The notes under the pieces were generated by a model, which saw only the letters and a list, made by a program, of their open reading frames with translations, was not told where the DNA came from and did not search any database. The position numbers and the translations under genes are program-made. Positions 14,139-48,363 of a stretch of DNA of 64,000 nt are shown piece after piece (positions within the stretch are counted from its first letter, which is position 1; each line of letters starts with the position of its first letter). This DNA is from an uncultured Chitinophagaceae bacterium (lineage in GTDB: Bacteria > Bacteroidota > Ignavibacteria > UBA10030 > UBA8401): contig CAYTOA010000008.1 of assembly GCA_964439265.1 (NCBI GenBank), positions 19,087 through 83,086 of the forward strand, written 5' to 3'.

Positions 14139-14250
14139 CAATTAACAATCATCAATGAACAATGAACATGGGGAGTGAACAGTAAACAGTAATCATTAAC
14201 TCTACTCTGAATTCCTAATTCATAATTCTTAATTCATAATTCTTAATTGC
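14139..14250 (-). repeat. heptanucleotide tandem array filling the whole DAHP synthase-tyrA spacer (16 heptamers in one register)
   Basis: Plus strand reads CAATTAA CAATCAT CAATGAA CAATGAA CATGGGG AGTGAAC AGTAAAC AGTAATC ATTAACT CTACTCT GAATTCC TAATTCA TAATTCT TAATTCA TAATTCT TAATTGC. Confidence 0.85.
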
Positions 14251-35651: not shown

Positions 35652-35985
35652 GAAACAAAATTCCTTGTAGTGCGCCGAATAAAATGATCGTCAATCCCCT
35701 TCAGGCGTGTGACAATCGAATAGTGGAATAGCGCGATTTCCTGGCTATCATTACTTATGTGGTGAATTTCCAACAGCACGAATCAGTGACCCCCTTCGCC
35801 AGCAAGTTCAACTCAGTGCCCTTTTGGGGAGCGAAATTCAAATACCCCTACGGAACAGAGCAGACCATGCTCTTTGTTGCGCTAAAAAAGGCGCTTCTGC
35901 CCTTTTTATAAAATTCAAGGTAAAAGTACGAAAAATAAGGCAGGCTTGCAAGCTCTTTAATTAACGAGGATTTACGCCAAGGGGA

Positions 35986-36028
35986 AATAAAAAAGGCCAA
36001 GATTCCTGTATCACACTTTCGGCAGCGG
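35986..36028 (-). repeat. displaced, diverged duplicate of the SRP RNA 3' tail plus terminator
   Basis: 39/43 identity to 36374-36416, by my hand alignment: AATAAAAAAGG[C/T]CAAG[A/C]TT[C/A]CTGTATCACACTTTCGG[C/T]AGCGG. Confidence 0.8.
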
Positions 36029-36358
36029 TCGACGATTCAACGAGTCGTCGACTCGTTGAGGGTCGGGCGAAAGTGTACGTTCTGACTGAAGCAACTCTTC
36101 AATTTTTATGTGATTAAATTGGGAAATCAGCCGCTTTTTCCTTTCGGTATTCCATTTCTTTTTCAATTCCTGCTCACGCCACATTGCCTCCGATCGCCGA
36201 TCAAAGACTTCAAAATAGCCCAATTGCCACGGTGATTTCTTCCGAGTAGATTGAACTCTTCCTGAATTATGAAGTTTTAGTCTCGCATGAATATCTTGAG
36301 TCTGTCCAGTATAGAGGGTTCCGTCAGCGTCGCTCACGAGAATGTAAACGTAAAACAT
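36011..36358 (-). CDS. small standalone GIY-YIG nuclease-domain protein
   Basis: FYVYILVSDADGTLYTGQTQDIHARLKLHN...RRSEAMWREQELKK gives the GIY...YTG, R, E and N core. ATG at 36358 follows GGGGAGGG. The last codons and stop lie inside the duplicated SRP RNA tail. Confidence 0.8.
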   Translation of the reverse strand: MFYVYILVSDADGTLYTGQTQDIHARLKLHNSGRVQSTRKKSPWQLGYFEVFDRRSEAMWREQELKKKWNTERKKRLISQFNHIKIEELLQSERTLSPDPQRVDDSLNRRPLPKV

Positions 36359-36382
36359 TAATCCCTCCCCACGAATAAAAAA

Positions 36383-36477
36383 GGTCAAGCTTACTGTATC
36401 ACACTTTCGGTAGCGGGCCGTTGCTTCCTTCCGGACCTGGCGGGGTTGGGCGACTTACGGTTGTACAGGGCTTGACC
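36383..36477 (-). ncRNA. ffs: signal recognition particle RNA (small/4.5S type)
   Basis: Minus strand reads GGTCAAGCCCTGTACAACCGTAAGTCGCCCAACCCCGCCAGGTCCGGAAGGAAGCAACGGCCCGCTACCGAAAGTGTGATACAGTAAGCTTGACC. It contains the conserved domain IV CAGGUCCGGAAGGAAGCA with a GGAA tetraloop, a terminal stem GGTCAAGC/GCTTGACC, and a following T6 run. Confidence 0.85.
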
Positions 36478-36481
36478 TTTA

Positions 36482-36544
36482 CAATTAACAATGAACAATC
36501 AACAATGATCATTCATTCTTAATTCATAATTCTTAATTATTAAT
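36482..36544 (-). repeat. heptanucleotide tandem array between tRNA-Ala and ffs (9 heptamers in register)
   Basis: CAATTAA CAATGAA CAATCAA CAATGAT CATTCAT TCTTAAT TCATAAT TCTTAAT TATTAAT. Closely related to the array at 14139-14250. Confidence 0.85.
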
Positions 36545-36554
36545 TGCTCTCTTG

Positions 36555-36627
36555 TGGAGCTGATCGGGATCGAACCGACGACCTATTCGTTGCGAACGAA
36601 TCGCTCTCCCAACTGAGCTACAGCCCC
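36555..36627 (-). tRNA. tRNA-Ala (anticodon CGC)
   Basis: Reverse complement is GGGGCTGTAGCTCAGTTGGGAGAGCGATTCGTTCGCAACGAATAGGTCGTCGGTTCGATCCCGATCAGCTCCA. It folds as a cloverleaf with anticodon loop TTCGCAA, a G3:U70 alanine identity pair and a GTTCGATC T-loop. No encoded CCA. Confidence 0.95.
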
Positions 36628-36836
36628 AATTTAAGGTCTTCGTTGTGAATGAATTTCGCGATACATCCTTTTCATTCACGCCCAAGATTTCAAGTTTTGG
36701 ACCAATTCGTCCAGCTGGTAATTATCCAAATCTCTGAGACAATATAGTGAACAATAGAAGTTAATTCAAGGCTAATTCTGCCCGTCAAATTGGCATCTGA
36801 GTATTGAGAGAGAGCCCAAATTGCAGCCTTTCGGTC

Positions 36837-47312: not shown

Positions 47313-48257
47313 TCAAAACCGAATTTTCAAATTCCTAATTCTTAATTCATTATTCTTAATTGCATTCTCGCACCATTCGATTGTCCGCTGAATTCCTTCG
47401 TCCAGCGAGACTGTCGCCTTCCAGCCCAGTGCATTGATCTTACCGACGTCGAGCAATTTCCGGGGCATGCCGTCCGGTTTTGTCCCATCGAAACTAACCG
47501 CGCCTGTAAAGCCCGACATTTCCCTTACTAGGTGAGCCAGGTCAAAAATTGAGATATCCTCCCCGCTTCCAATATTGATGATCTCGCTGCTGTCGTAGCG
47601 CTTCATAAGAAATACGCAGGCATTCGCCAGATCGTCAACAAAAAGGAACTCCCGTTTCGCCTTTCCAGTCCCCCACAAAAGCACCGACGCAGCGCTGGAA
47701 TTGCGGGCTTCGATAAATTTCCGGATCAACGCGGGCAGAACGTGCGAATTCTCGAGGTCGAAATTGTCGTTCGGTCCATACAAGTTCGTAGGCATGACGG
47801 AAATAAAATTCGTTCCGTACTGTTTGTTGTAGGCCTGGCACATTTTGATCCCGGCAATTTTGGCGACCGCGTACGCATCGTTCGTCGGCTCCAGCTTGCC
47901 GTCAAGCAAGTATTCTTCCTTGATCGGCTGCGGTGCAAACTTGGGATAGATACAGGAGCTCCCAAGGAAACAGAGCTTCTTCACCTTGTTAAGGTACGAC
48001 GAGTGGATAACATTGTTCTGAATCTGGAGGTTGTCATAAATAAATTCGGCGGAATGCGTGTCGTTTGCGTAGATCCCCCCCACGATCGCAGCAGCCAAAA
48101 AAACATATTCCGGCTTTTCTTTCTCGAAAAAATCTTCCACCGCCCCCTGATTTTCCAGCTCCAATTCCTCATGGGTGCGTGCAACGATATTCGAATATCC
48201 TGCGAAATCGAGTGCACGCACTATAGCCGACCCGACGAGTCCGCGGTGACCGGCCAC
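47313..48257 (-). CDS. fcl: GDP-L-fucose synthase (GDP-4-keto-6-deoxy-D-mannose 3,5-epimerase/4-reductase)
   Basis: [36 protein letters not shown] are Fcl motifs. GTG start, with in-frame upstream codons SKIY but no canonical start. The last ~15 codons are encoded by a heptamer array. Confidence 0.9.
47321..47362 (-). repeat. heptanucleotide array overlapping the 3' end of fcl
   Basis: ...CAA ATTCCTA ATTCTTA ATTCATT ATTCTTA ATTG. Same family as 14209-14250 and 48340-48363. Confidence 0.8.
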
Positions 48258-48290: not shown

Positions 48291-48363
48291 CTCTGAGGTT
48301 TGAGTTGTAGTTTGTTAGTTGTTAGTTGTGGATTTCAAATTCATGATTCTTAATTCTTAATTG
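48291..48363 (-). repeat. heptanucleotide array in gmd-fcl spacer
   Basis: CTCTGAG GTTTGAG TTGTAGT TTGTTAG TTGTTAG TTGTGGA TTTCAAA TTCATGA TTCTTAA TTCTTAA TTG, all in one register. Confidence 0.85.

What the first reader, a model, noticed from the sequence alone, without database searches (positions are those of the whole stretch)
35986..36627. GIY-YIG gene cassette inserted into the 3' end of the SRP RNA gene, flanked by a duplicated 43-nt ffs tail
Seen directly on the minus strand:
- tRNA-Ala(CGC) runs 36627-36555, followed by a heptamer spacer and then a 95-nt SRP RNA (36477-36383). The SRP RNA has the domain IV CAGGTCCGGAAGGAAGCA motif, a terminal stem GGTCAAGC/GCTTGACC and a T6 terminator.
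- About 20 nt later comes GGGGAGGG and the ATG (36358) of a 115-aa GIY-YIG ORF.
- The last six codons and the stop of that ORF (CCG CTG CCG AAA GTG TGA) lie inside a second copy of the ffs 3' tail plus T-run. 35986-36028 matches 36374-36416 at 39/43 positions, with an offset of 388 bp.
- The distal copy reads ATCTTGGCC where the proximal copy reads AGCTTGACC. It can no longer pair cleanly with the ffs 5' strand, so it looks like the displaced, decaying original end.
- A perfect palindrome CAACGAGTCG-T-CGACTCGTTG (36038-36058) sits just inside the distal repeat, within the non-domain tail of the ORF.

Inference: this is the footprint left when an element inserts into the 3' end of a structural RNA gene and regenerates that end, as tRNA- and tmRNA-targeting islands do. 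Here the only cargo is a tiny nuclease gene and there is no integrase. That suggests homing-like mobility of a standalone GIY-YIG gene into ffs, which I do not know to be described.
Basis: partly seen in the sequence, partly recalled or inferred. Interest (0 to 1): 0.75.

Follow-up and report, generated by a model that had tools for sequence, protein, structure and literature searches.

The report
Nuclease cassette nested in RNA genes
A tiny nuclease gene sits just after the signal-recognition-particle RNA gene and is followed by a second, broken copy of that gene's tail; close relatives lack the insert, and about 25 related loci show the same design at SRP RNA or tRNA-Ala genes, which points to an undescribed kind of selfish gene cassette in bacteria.

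Summary
On the minus strand lie tRNA-Ala(CGC), ffs (Rfam, 55 bits), a 115-aa GIY-YIG ORF and a 43-nt second copy of the ffs tail (39/43).

The finding turned out larger than reported:
- **Empty sites.** Close relatives (RNase G 94-97% identical) have ffs joined directly to the window's downstream flank.
- **A family-wide design.** In about 25 loci from Ignavibacteriota/Bacteroidota MAGs and metagenome contigs, this GIY-YIG subfamily lies next to ffs or tRNA-Ala in 23. At least 24 carry a partial copy of that RNA gene next to the ORF. Four arrangements occur, and ORF start or stop codons are often supplied by tRNA sequence.
- **Palindromic modules.** The partial copies are cut up by short palindromes (about 16 nt, TCTACGA/TCGTAGA type). 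The window's "perfect palindrome" is one. Almost none occur elsewhere.
- **Co-variation.** With modules removed, each partial copy still matches its own genome's intact gene.
- **The protein.** It resembles UPF0213/Slx1 (structure-specific nucleases), not Tev/Seg homing enzymes. It is under purifying selection (dN/dS about 0.15-0.2).

Best reading: a selfish, recombination-propagated nuclease cassette that preserves its essential RNA target by partial duplication. The closest analogue is the fungal mitochondrial mobile ORF. The cleavage target and the role of the modules are untested.

The parts
36554..36627 (-). tRNA-Ala(CGC), intact. First gene of the tRNA-Ala/ffs RNA locus. In related genomes it is the alternative home of the same cassette.
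   Evidence: ARAGORN; Rfam RF00005, 66.4 bits. Types B/C in relatives.
36478..36553 (-). AT-rich spacer with tandem 7/14-nt repeats between the tRNA and ffs.
   Evidence: family D2. The same motif recurs in other intergenic regions of the window.
36374..36477 (-). Intact SRP (4.5S) RNA gene ffs plus its T-run. The proximal copy of the duplicated tail is 36416-36374.
   Evidence: Rfam RF00169, 55.1 bits, model positions 1-97. Repeat D1.
36363..36370 (-). Shine-Dalgarno-like GGGGAGGG. Only about 15 nt separate the end of the ffs tail repeat (36374) from the ATG, so there is no room for a separate promoter.
   Evidence: Sequence. No promoter-like site between ffs and the ORF.
36083..36358 (-). 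GIY-YIG nuclease core (aa 1-92), UPF0213/Slx1-like. This is the conserved part of the ORF.
   Evidence: PF01541, E 5e-16. 59 homologues, mostly 90-96 aa. Invariant Y16, G18, H30, N31, E50, R55, E62. AF2 pLDDT above 90 over most of aa 1-96. PDB 1zg2, 1ywl and Slx1. dN/dS 0.14-0.21.
36011..36082 (-). Non-conserved C-terminal extension of the ORF (aa 93-115 plus stop). It reads through the ffs remnant, the palindromic modules and into the distal ffs tail.
   Evidence: Absent from most homologues. pLDDT about 50-60. Stop TGA at 36013-36011 lies inside the repeat.
36060..36068 (-). Remnant of ffs nt 27-35 (GCCCGACCC). This is the start of the partial (distal) ffs copy.
   Evidence: Compared with L032, L008 and L038, where GCCCAACCC is followed by modules and then ffs 35-105.
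36029..36059 (-). Two palindromic modules (TCAACGAGTCGACGA + CTCGTTGAATCGTCGA). They sit where ffs nt 36-61 has been lost.
   Evidence: Orthologous modules at ffs position 62 in L008 and L038. Module catalogue.
35986..36028 (-). Distal copy of ffs nt 62-104 plus T-run, 39/43 identical to the proximal copy.
35826..35985 (-). Native downstream flank. In cassette-free relatives it follows ffs directly.
   Evidence: BLAST against L036 and L039. Sequences.

Best explanation
This is a small selfish gene cassette, not an ordinary gene. It has two parts. One is a minimal Slx1/UPF0213-type GIY-YIG nuclease of about 92 aa. The other is a partial copy of the RNA gene it lives in.

Its home is the tRNA-Ala/ffs RNA locus. 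The ORF is joined to the RNA gene at a fixed internal point: ffs nt about 26/27, or the tRNA anticodon stem-loop at nt about 25-40. The essential RNA survives because the segment beyond that point is duplicated. One full gene therefore remains on one side and a truncated copy lies on the other.

The cassette has no promoter of its own. In the window it must be expressed by read-through from the ffs promoter. In other arrangements it borrows start or stop codons from tRNA sequence.

It is gained and lost by recombination that uses the universally conserved RNA gene as homology. This could be double-strand-break repair or Campbell-type, ends-in integration, with precise loss between the direct repeats. 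The nuclease is the likely source of the initiating breaks.

The truncated copy is punctuated by short DNA palindromes. These break the direct repeat into blocks of about 15-45 nt. They are also plausible cruciform substrates for a structure-specific nuclease. They probably suppress deletion of the cassette, or are where the nuclease acts, or both.

**Shown:** anatomy, family-wide conservation, empty sites, co-variation of the two copies, purifying selection on the protein.

**Inferred:** that the nuclease drives mobility, what it cuts, and what the modules do.
For: **Presence/absence at one site.**
- Occupied: the window, L008, L032, L038.
- Cleanly empty: L036, L039, L033. Their RNase G is 90-97% identical to the window's, with dS 0.59-1.4.
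- The two states are interleaved among relatives.

**Family-wide linkage.**
- 23 of about 25 loci have the ORF within about 200 nt of an intact ffs or tRNA-Ala.
- At least 24 have a partial copy of that RNA next to the ORF. L030, cut short by its contig end, shows only 12-15-nt matches.
- More distant GIY-YIGs (L027-L029) lack any tRNA or ffs nearby.

**Fixed junctions.**
- Partial ffs copies start at nt 25-27 where that end is preserved; the copy in L013 is cut back to about nt 53.
- tRNA copies end at nt 31-40 or start at nt 24-29.
- ATG in the anticodon loop: L022.
- TGA in the anticodon stem: L010, L011, L025.
- TAG at tRNA nt 7-9: L016, L019, L020, L022, L017.

**Signs of a gain, decay and loss cycle.**
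- Degenerate copies: L024, L026, L030.
- Tandem or stacked copies: L015, L043, L045.
- L017 has full tRNA copies on both sides.

**Mosaic or foreign partial copies.**
- L024's copy matches L018-type ffs at 13/15 variable sites, against 9/15 for its own.
- The 5' block in L012 is of the window-clade type.

**Co-variation.** Partial copies match their own intact ffs at 12/13 to 14/14 lineage-variable columns. Meanwhile they keep position-specific, orthologous modules.

**Modules are confined to these partial copies.** One search found none elsewhere in the 64-kb window or in the flanks (up to 3 kb) of 20 loci. The one exception is a cluster just downstream of the cassette in L008.

**The protein is functional.** dN/dS is 0.14-0.21. 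Catalytic-type residues are invariant. The fold is confident.

**Fold class.** The nearest folds are UPF0213 and Slx1, a structure-specific nuclease.

**Known precedent.** Fungal mitochondrial mobile ORFs carry a duplicated gene terminus. The endonuclease is reported as biochemically shown to be responsible for mobility in Allomyces (PMC3630166, read).
Against: - There is no immunity mechanism. Over the stretches recovered, intact ffs shows no consistent difference between occupied and empty genomes. An ffs-specific nuclease would therefore cut its own host gene. In the fungal analogue the two copies are divergent.
- Each genome-scan locus comes from a different genome, so one copy per genome was seen. 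The protein tree roughly follows host clades.
- dS of the GIY gene (0.69, window against L008) is of the same order as dS of the host RNase G (1.03). Long vertical residence with occasional precise loss therefore explains the presence/absence pattern as well as horizontal gain does.
- No within-species polymorphism was seen. All 14 contigs of the window species were retrieved by exact protein match and so are occupied by construction.
- No nuclease activity, target or circular intermediate has been observed.
- Module sequences differ between lineages (L043, L023), so they need not be sequence-specific nuclease sites.
Confidence: 0.6

Rival explanations
1. This is a resident host gene, not a mobile element. 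On this reading a UPF0213/Slx1-like protein has a housekeeping role tied to the tRNA-Ala/ffs operon, for example RNA processing or repair of a highly transcribed, hairpin-rich locus. The partial RNA copies are by-products of local unequal crossing-over. Absence in some relatives is simple gene loss.
For: - Purifying selection.
- The tree roughly tracks host clades, and the locus is stable across a phylum-level group.
- dS is comparable to that of host genes.
- The family is described as vertically inherited repair enzymes, and one fusion to a TrmH-like tRNA methyltransferase hints at RNA metabolism (PMC1564403).
- It is co-transcribed with RNA genes by position.
Against: - The gene is dispensable in very close relatives, and their empty sites are clean.
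- Four different insertion geometries occur around two different RNA genes, and all have the same partial-duplication signature.
- Pseudogenised copies exist.
- Foreign-type partial copies occur in L024 and L012.
- A host gene needs neither a flanking pseudo-copy nor start/stop codons embedded in tRNA sequence.
Confidence: 0.17
2. This is a mini integrative element moved by a site-specific recombinase acting in trans. On this reading the direct repeats are attL/attR formed in the RNA gene, as for tRNA- and tmRNA-targeting islands. The GIY-YIG gene is only cargo.
For: - The geometry is the classical attL/attR picture: an intact gene, cargo, then a 3' fragment starting in the anticodon arm.
- L015 and L010 are compatible with Campbell integration of a circle.
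Against: - No integrase was seen in the window neighbourhood or in the flanks (up to 3 kb) of the relatives' loci for which genes were listed.
- The only conserved protein is the nuclease.
- Repeats reach about 80 nt and include species-specific flank (L010), which is more than a core att site.
- Both 5'-type and 3'-type duplications occur.
- Palindromic modules and co-variation of the two copies are not features of att sites.
- No relatives were found in viral contigs.
Confidence: 0.06
3. The partial copy plus modules is a functional RNA element. It could be a structured 3' or 5' UTR that stabilises or processes the nuclease mRNA (tRNA-like or SRP-like punctuation for RNase P/Z/E). It could also be a decoy for Ffh or tRNA-binding factors. 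On this reading its identity to the real RNA is maintained by selection, not by recombination.
For: - Modules lie mostly at loop or helix-junction positions, which preserves the RNA helices: D-loop, anticodon loop, variable/T boundary, the ffs GGAA tetraloop, internal loops.
- In L008 a pseudo-tRNA has its T-arm replaced by another GC hairpin.
- Recurrent hits on the Ffh-binding CCAGG motif occur in five partial copies. This suggests selection against a dominant-negative SRP RNA, which implies the copy is transcribed.
Against: - Modules show no strand asymmetry. Summed folding energy is -388.6 for sense and -396.6 for antisense. G-U pairs number 10 against 6. This fits DNA palindromes, not RNA hairpins.
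- Many 16-nt units barely fold.
- Which RNA parts are retained varies widely. Domain IV is deleted in the window, L014 and L018.
- No Rfam family matches, even at E up to 1.
Confidence: 0.1

Closest known systems
Mobile endonuclease ORFs (mORFs) of fungal mitochondria that carry a duplicated gene terminus (Allomyces macrogynus atp6 GIY-YIG ORF; Glomus atp6/atp9/cox2/nad3)
   Same: A free-standing endonuclease ORF is inserted in the 3' part of an essential gene. A duplicated terminus keeps the gene intact. The other copy is displaced downstream. The ORF can be in phase with host sequence. Relatives lack the insert (PMC3630166).
   Different: - The host here is a bacterial chromosome.
- The targets are structural RNA genes (ffs, tRNA-Ala), not protein genes.
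- The nuclease is a 92-aa Slx1/UPF0213-type protein.
- Here the two copies are usually identical and co-vary. In fungi they are 63-81% identical and one is foreign.
- 5'-side versions exist.
- The displaced copy carries conserved palindromic modules.
Free-standing GIY-YIG homing endonucleases of T-even phages, e.g. SegB in the T4 tRNA gene cluster
   Same: A GIY-YIG gene sits among tRNA genes and spreads by break-induced gene conversion with co-conversion of flanking markers. This rests on my own knowledge; the reference was seen as PMC2330249.
   Different: - Seg enzymes belong to the Tev/UvrC+ lineage and have extra DNA-binding domains.
- They involve no duplication of the target and no palindromic modules.
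- They are phage-borne, whereas this subfamily is absent from IMG/VR.
Integrase-mediated islands in tRNA, tmRNA or ffs genes
   Same: An intact RNA gene is regenerated and a 3' fragment is repeated at the far end. The crossover region lies in the anticodon arm.
   Different: There is no integrase. The cargo is about 0.3 kb. 5'-type duplications occur. Repeats are long and interrupted.
Bacterial UPF0213 / prokaryotic Slx1-like GIY-YIG proteins (BH0048, PDB 1zg2; EF2693, PDB 1ywl)
   Same: These are the best sequence and fold matches (E 4e-13; Foldseek rank 1). They represent the minimal stand-alone GIY-YIG domain.
   Different: Those proteins are regarded as vertically inherited repair factors of unknown function (PMC1564403). 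No link to RNA genes, duplications or palindromes is reported for them.
Ultra-short palindromic mobile elements (double-hairpin elements of Allomyces mtDNA, GC clusters of yeast mtDNA; bacterial REP/RAYT)
   Same: Short palindromic inserts, in some cases near endonuclease elements. This comparison rests on my own knowledge.
   Different: The modules here are not dispersed. They occur only inside the partial RNA copies beside the nuclease gene. They show no target-site duplication and have a conserved TCGTAGA 3' half.

Membership tests
GIY-YIG nuclease superfamily (PF01541) | Domain profile match above the curated threshold | tested here: met
   59.1 bits against a cutoff of 22.6, residues 1-71.
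GIY-YIG nuclease superfamily (PF01541) | Conserved catalytic-type residues (Tyr of GIY and YIG, Arg, Glu) | tested here: met
   Y16, G18, H30, N31, E50, R55 and E62 are invariant; Y5 and R26 are at least 90% conserved in 33 sequences.
Prokaryotic Slx1-like / UPF0213 clade | Closest sequence and fold relatives are UPF0213 and Slx1, not the UvrC/Tev lineage; minimal stand-alone domain | tested here: met
   Profile against PDB: 1zg2 E 3.8e-13, 1ywl 2.8e-9, SLX1 0.013, UvrC 0.087, I-TevI 0.35. Foldseek ranks 1zg2 and then six Slx1 entries ahead of I-TevI.
Homing endonuclease gene (free-standing) | Presence/absence polymorphism at the same site in related genomes | tested here: met
   Clean empty sites L036, L039 and L033 against occupied window, L008, L032 and L038.
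Homing endonuclease gene (free-standing) | The enzyme makes a site-specific break in the endonuclease-free allele | not testable with these tools
   Needs biochemistry.
Homing endonuclease gene (free-standing) | The occupied allele is immune because its target is disrupted or divergent | tested here: not met
   Intact ffs shows no consistent difference between occupied and empty genomes over the stretches recovered. No sequence-level immunity is visible if the target is the RNA gene itself.
Homing endonuclease gene (free-standing) | Co-conversion of flanking markers from the donor | tested here: inconclusive
   Mosaic partial copies in L012 (foreign 5' block) and L024 (L018-type 3' block). The other loci match their own genome.
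mORF-type element with terminal gene duplication (fungal mitochondria) | Endonuclease ORF flanked by an intact gene and a displaced duplicate terminus | tested here: met
mORF-type element with terminal gene duplication (fungal mitochondria) | The inserted terminus is foreign and divergent from the native one | tested here: not met
   Copies are 91-100% identical and co-vary with the host gene.
Integrase-mediated tRNA/tmRNA-type island | Tyrosine or serine recombinase encoded in the element | tested here: not met
   The only ORF between the repeats is the GIY-YIG gene. The neighbours are housekeeping genes.
Group I intron with homing endonuclease in a tRNA gene | Ribozyme core interrupting the tRNA | tested here: not met
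   No intron family in Rfam scans, including at E up to 1. An uninterrupted tRNA or ffs is present.
REP/MITE-type dispersed palindromic repeats (for the modules) | Many copies dispersed through the genome | tested here: not met
   One cluster in the 64-kb window. None in the flanks (up to 3 kb) of 20 loci outside the partial copies, apart from one adjacent site in L008.
REP/MITE-type dispersed palindromic repeats (for the modules) | Associated RAYT/TnpA-type transposase | not tested
   No whole genome was available. None was seen among the neighbours examined.

The most novel reading that the evidence does not exclude
This would be a previously unrecognised class of bacterial selfish element. 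A minimal Slx1-like structure-specific GIY-YIG nuclease travels with a piece of a universally conserved RNA gene, which serves as portable homology. The palindromic modules inside that homology are the nuclease's own cruciform or hairpin substrates. Breaks at the modules would drive ends-in recombination with the intact RNA gene. That one process would both integrate the cassette into naive genomes and continually homogenise the two copies. It would explain the co-variation, the duplication geometry and the lack of any need for target immunity.
Probability: 0.25. Interest if true: 0.88.

Novelty: new variant of a known kind. Interest (0 to 1): 0.76.

Why it matters
- **A role for an unassigned protein family.** Stand-alone bacterial Slx1/UPF0213 GIY-YIG proteins have solved structures but no known role. 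They are thought to be vertically inherited repair factors. This subfamily behaves like the payload of a selfish cassette.
- **A new route into essential RNA genes.** An element could colonise such genes without an intron ribozyme or an integrase, simply by duplicating part of the target. That principle is so far documented for protein genes in fungal mitochondria.
- **Two concrete, testable puzzles.** One is the palindromic modules. The other is the maintained identity of 15-45-nt blocks between them. Both concern how short interrupted repeats recombine, and what a minimal structure-specific nuclease recognises.
- **A practical consequence.** Such cassettes create pseudo-tRNA and pseudo-SRP fragments, and ORFs that run into RNA genes. 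These can confuse annotation. They also mark a recombination hotspot beside ffs.

Tried and rejected
- **Hidden RNA family.** An Rfam scan at E up to 1 on three loci found only the intact tRNA and ffs.
- **Phage origin.** There are no relatives in IMG/VR viral contigs.
- **RNA-level hairpins.** I folded 37 modules on both strands and found no strand asymmetry. I therefore dropped RNA-hairpin selection as the main reading.
Neither the 43-nt tail nor the palindrome occurs elsewhere in the window.
- **Own promoter or terminator.** None was found between ffs and the ORF. The scan uses a sigma-70 consensus, which may not suit this phylum.
- **Gain versus loss from dS.** GIY dS is 0.69 and RNase G dS is 1.03 for the same genome pair. 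The gene is too short for this to be decisive.
- **Gapped local alignment of partial copies to all ffs genes.** It aligned through the modules and was uninformative. I replaced it with module-stripped alignments.
- **Module sequence co-varying with protein clade.** This was not convincing. L023 has AT-rich palindromes but an ordinary protein.
- **Literature.** Eight searches found no description of GIY-YIG cassettes at ffs or tRNA-Ala, nor of the modules. Subscription journals are not covered.
- **Missing data.** One context look-up (P0020) returned no DNA.
Full report
**1.

Reading the minus strand and running independent detectors confirms every feature.
- tRNA-Ala(CGC) lies at 36627-36554 (ARAGORN; Rfam 66.4 bits).
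- The bacterial small SRP RNA lies at 36477-36380. It matches RF00169 over model positions 1-97 at 55.1 bits, against a gathering score of 40.
- GGGGAGGG precedes an ATG at 36358. The ORF is 115 aa and ends at 36011. Its first 71 residues match PF01541 GIY-YIG at E 5e-16.
- A 43-nt direct repeat joins 35986-36028 to 36374-36416 at 39/43, spaced 388 nt.
- The shared 17-mer occurs exactly twice in 64 kb, against 0.01 expected.
- The palindrome core occurs once, against 0.05 expected.
- The flanking genes are housekeeping: RNase G, transaldolase, GcvT, a C-methyltransferase and a DUF4254 protein. There is no recombinase.

**2.

I scanned metagenome contigs for the intact ffs core of this clade. 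The scan returned 11 loci.
- Three relatives have ffs followed directly by the sequence that in the window lies 3' of 35986...GCTTGACCTTTTTTATT-CCCC.GGCGTAAATCC..TAATTAAAGAGCTTGCAAGCCTGCC.... These are L036, L039 and L033. Their RNase G is 94-97%, 95% and 86-90% identical to the window's (tblastn; global alignment).
- In L036 a single 44-nt stretch aligns to both window repeats.
- L041/L031 and L037 carry other insertions in the same intergenic region. One includes an IS1-like transposase and the other is a REP-like palindrome.
- Occupied relatives are L008, L032 and L038, with GIY proteins 75%, 74-79% and 66-68% identical.
- Measured by RNase G dS, occupied and empty genomes are interleaved.

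**3. The cassette is one member of a conserved architecture**

The protein has 59 close homologues, mostly 90-96 aa. A scan of one genome per GTDB species found 21 loci, 18 of them true relatives. All 18 come from MAGs labelled Ignavibacteriae or Bacteroidota, apart from one labelled Synechococcus. With the metagenome and look-up loci there are about 25 loci with DNA.

In 23 of them the ORF lies within about 200 nt of an intact ffs or tRNA-Ala gene. Four geometries recur:
- **Type A:** tRNA-Ala(CGC), ffs, GIY. Seen in the window, L008, L012-14, L018, L021, L026, L032, L038, L043 and L045.
- **Type B:** GIY, tRNA-Ala(CGC), ffs. Seen in L015, L016 and L019.
- **Type C:** tRNA-Ala, GIY. Seen in L010, L011, L025 and L042.
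- **Type D:** GIY, tRNA-Ala(GGC). Seen in L020 and L022.

At least 24 of the loci carry a partial copy of the adjacent RNA gene on the other side of the ORF; L030, cut short by its contig end, shows only 12-15-nt matches. The junctions are fixed.
- Partial ffs copies begin at nt 25-27 where that end is preserved (L013's copy is cut back to about nt 53).
- Partial tRNA copies either end at nt 31-40 or begin at nt 24-29, that is, in the anticodon arm.

The ORF's own signals come from RNA-gene sequence.
- In L022 the ATG is anticodon-loop nt 32-34.
- In L010, L011 and L025 the stop TGA is the anticodon stem (GCG-TGA-ATGGCATTCACG).
- In types B and D and in L017 the stop TAG is tRNA nt 7-9. This explains the common ...LGL* C-terminus seen.

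Other details fit the same picture.
- L017 has a full tRNA on both sides.
- L015 has a tandem arrangement: GIY fragment, tRNA 1-31, GIY, tRNA.
- L043 and L045 have two partial ffs copies.
- More distant GIY-YIGs (L027-L029) have no tRNA or ffs nearby.
- No relative occurs in viral contigs.

**4. Palindromic modules**

The partial copies are not simply truncated. They are split into colinear blocks, mostly 100% identical to the intact gene, separated by short inserts.
- The basic unit is 16 nt, of the form xyz-(T/A)AC-z'y'x' + TCGTAGA. Examples are GCCTACGGCTCGTAGA, GTCTACGACTCGTAGA and CCCAAAGGGTCGTAGA.
- Double units form palindromes of 31-33 nt, such as TCTACGACTCTACGAGTCGTAGACTCGTAGA.
- There is no target-site duplication.
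- The window's palindrome is two such units, TCAACGAGTCGACGA + CTCGTTGAATCGTCGA. They sit at ffs position 35/62, and ffs nt 36-61 between those positions has been lost. L008 and L038 have orthologous modules at position 62 with the intervening domain IV still present.
- Insertion points recur and are mostly loops or helix junctions. In ffs they are nt 35, 46/47 (inside the GGAA tetraloop), 61-64 and 84/85. In tRNA they are D-loop nt 19, the anticodon loop and the variable/T-arm boundary. A few lie inside a stem (L042, L011).
- Modules are essentially confined to these pseudo-copies. None occurs elsewhere in the window or in the flanks (up to 3 kb) of 20 loci. The exception is one cluster just downstream in L008.
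- Other lineages use different palindromes in the same places. L043 has TCCGACTCG...CGAGTCGGA. L023 has AT-rich hairpins.
- Folding both strands shows no asymmetry: -388.6 against -396.6 kcal/mol summed, and 10 against 6 G-U pairs. They therefore look like DNA palindromes, not RNA hairpins.

**5. The two copies co-vary**

I removed the modules and aligned the partial copies with the intact genes. The partial copies are colinear with ffs nt about 27-105.
- At the 12-15 columns that vary among intact ffs genes of the second type-A clade, each partial copy matches its own genome. The scores are 12/13, 12/12, 13/14, 14/14, 14/14, 14/14 and 14/14. Against other genomes the scores are 4-13.
- Yet the modules at a given position share position-specific sequences across genomes. 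For example, CCCAAAGGGTCGT(A/T)GA occurs at position 85 in L021, L026 and L045. The GCCTACGGCTCGTAGA type occurs at position 47 in L012, L018, L021, L024 and L045. The modules are therefore older than the divergence of these genomes.
- Blocks of 15-45 nt between old modules thus track the host gene. This implies recurrent gene conversion, or re-integration, between the intact and partial copies.
- There are two exceptions. L024 has a decayed ORF 2 kb from the resident ffs, and its copy is L018-type at 13/15 against 9/15 for its own. The 5' block of L012 is of the window-clade type. Both are hints of transfer between lineages.
- The window copy (39/43 over the tail, plus an internal deletion) is one of the decayed ones.
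- Five partial copies independently hit the CCAGG motif: a deleted G in three, G>C in one and G>A in one. From general knowledge of SRP RNA, this motif belongs to the Ffh-binding loop.

**6. The protein**

- dN/dS is 0.14-0.21 among the window, L008 and L032.
- Y16, G18, H30, N31, E50, R55 and E62 are invariant.
- AlphaFold gives mean pLDDT 86. Residues 1-96 are confident and the window-specific tail 97-115 is disordered. This fits accidental read-through into the ffs remnant.
- The best solved relatives are UPF0213 BH0048 (1zg2, E 4e-13) and EF2693 (1ywl), followed by Slx1. UvrC and I-TevI are marginal. Foldseek gives the same order.
- In the published classification these prokaryotic Slx1-like proteins are minimal, vertically inherited, putative repair enzymes. 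The selfish GIY-YIGs derive from the UvrC+ lineage (PMC1564403).
- Degenerate copies exist: L024 (N-terminus lost), L026 (frameshift) and L030 (truncated).

**7. Interpretation**

The best-supported reading (about 0.6) is a selfish cassette: nuclease gene plus partial RNA-gene copy. It lives in the tRNA-Ala/ffs locus and is expressed by read-through, since there is no room for a promoter. It is gained and lost by recombination through the RNA-gene homology.

The structure is what ends-in or Campbell integration of a piece carrying an internal RNA-gene fragment would give. It is also what break repair copying a donor allele would give. The closest documented analogue is the fungal mitochondrial mORF, which brings a duplicate gene terminus (PMC3630166).

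Three things do not fit classical homing:
- Over the stretches recovered, the intact target shows no consistent difference between occupied and empty genomes, so the occupied allele has no visible immunity.
- The enzyme is Slx1-like.
- The duplicated copy is kept identical to the intact gene instead of diverging.

I therefore leave open, at about 0.25, that the modules are the nuclease's real substrates (cruciforms or hairpins), and that breaks there drive both integration and homogenisation. A simpler role for the modules is to break a long direct repeat into short blocks, which would suppress deletion of the cassette. L032, with an uninterrupted 71-nt repeat, would be the young or unstable state.

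The rivals are scored in their own sections: resident host gene (0.17), functional structured UTR or decoy (0.10), and integrase in trans (0.06).

**8. Limits**

- The direction of change (gain or precise loss) cannot be set. GIY dS (0.69) and RNase G dS (1.03) for the window and L008 are compatible with long residence.
- No within-species polymorphism, enzymatic activity, transcript map or circular form is available.
- Most loci are MAG or metagenome contigs.
- The literature search covers open-access text only.

**9. Verdict**

The finding is real, and richer than reported. It is a new variant of a known kind (an endonuclease ORF with target-terminus duplication), here in bacterial structural RNA genes and with two unexplained, conserved features: the modules and the co-variation of the two copies. 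Interest 0.76.

Noticed in passing
window 36478-36553 (-); also 14139-14248, 47330-47361, 48338-48363 (-): The tRNA-ffs spacer contains an AT-rich tandem motif (CAATTAAGAATTATGAATTAAGAAT..., then CATTGTTGATTGTTCATTGTT). It recurs on the same strand in at least three other intergenic regions of the window. It may be a small intergenic repeat or a promoter-associated family.
   Followed up: partly
L008 2517-2650 and 2770-2807: The intact tRNA-Ala(CGC) is flanked by pseudo-copies with no nuclease gene next to them. Upstream is a full-length copy with a 31-nt module in the D-loop and its T-arm replaced by a GC hairpin (CCCCGCC-AAAA-GGCGGGG). Downstream is a 3' fragment with a similar hairpin. This may be the relic of a type-B cassette.
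   Followed up: partly
L008 3500-3720: A MITE-like element with inverted ends TTGTCATGCCC...GGGAATGACAA lies about 40 nt after the distal ffs copy. It contains the only module-type palindromes found outside a partial RNA copy.
   Followed up: no
L041 140-3190 (= L031); L037 790-1000; L038 after about 1100: The same ffs-RNase G intergenic region is an insertion hotspot in relatives. One has a roughly 3-kb insert with an IS1-like transposase. Others have a different REP-like palindrome family (GCTCCCACGC..GCGTGGGAGC).
   Followed up: partly
partial ffs copies of L018, L024, L026, L021, L012 (alignment): Recurrent independent changes hit the CCAGG motif of domain IV: a deleted G in three, G>C in one and G>A in one. 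This would be expected if a transcribed pseudo-SRP RNA that still binds Ffh were harmful.
   Followed up: partly
L015 3001-3453; L045 1785-2075; L043 1335-1890: Stacked or tandem cassette parts occur: a GIY 3' fragment plus tRNA(1-31) ahead of a full GIY-tRNA unit; two tandem partial ffs copies, the second more decayed; and partial ffs copies on both sides of the ORF. These suggest repeated rounds of recombination at the locus.
   Followed up: partly
L021 (CALRIY020000038.1): This contig is labelled as a Synechococcus sp. MAG. However, it carries the Ignavibacteriota/Bacteroidota-type tRNA-Ala/ffs/GIY locus, so it is probably a binning contaminant.
   Followed up: no
window 36628-36696: An imperfect 26-nt inverted repeat (73% complementary) lies just upstream of tRNA-Ala. 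A sigma-70-like site at 36769-36741 (-) may be the promoter of the RNA operon.
   Followed up: no
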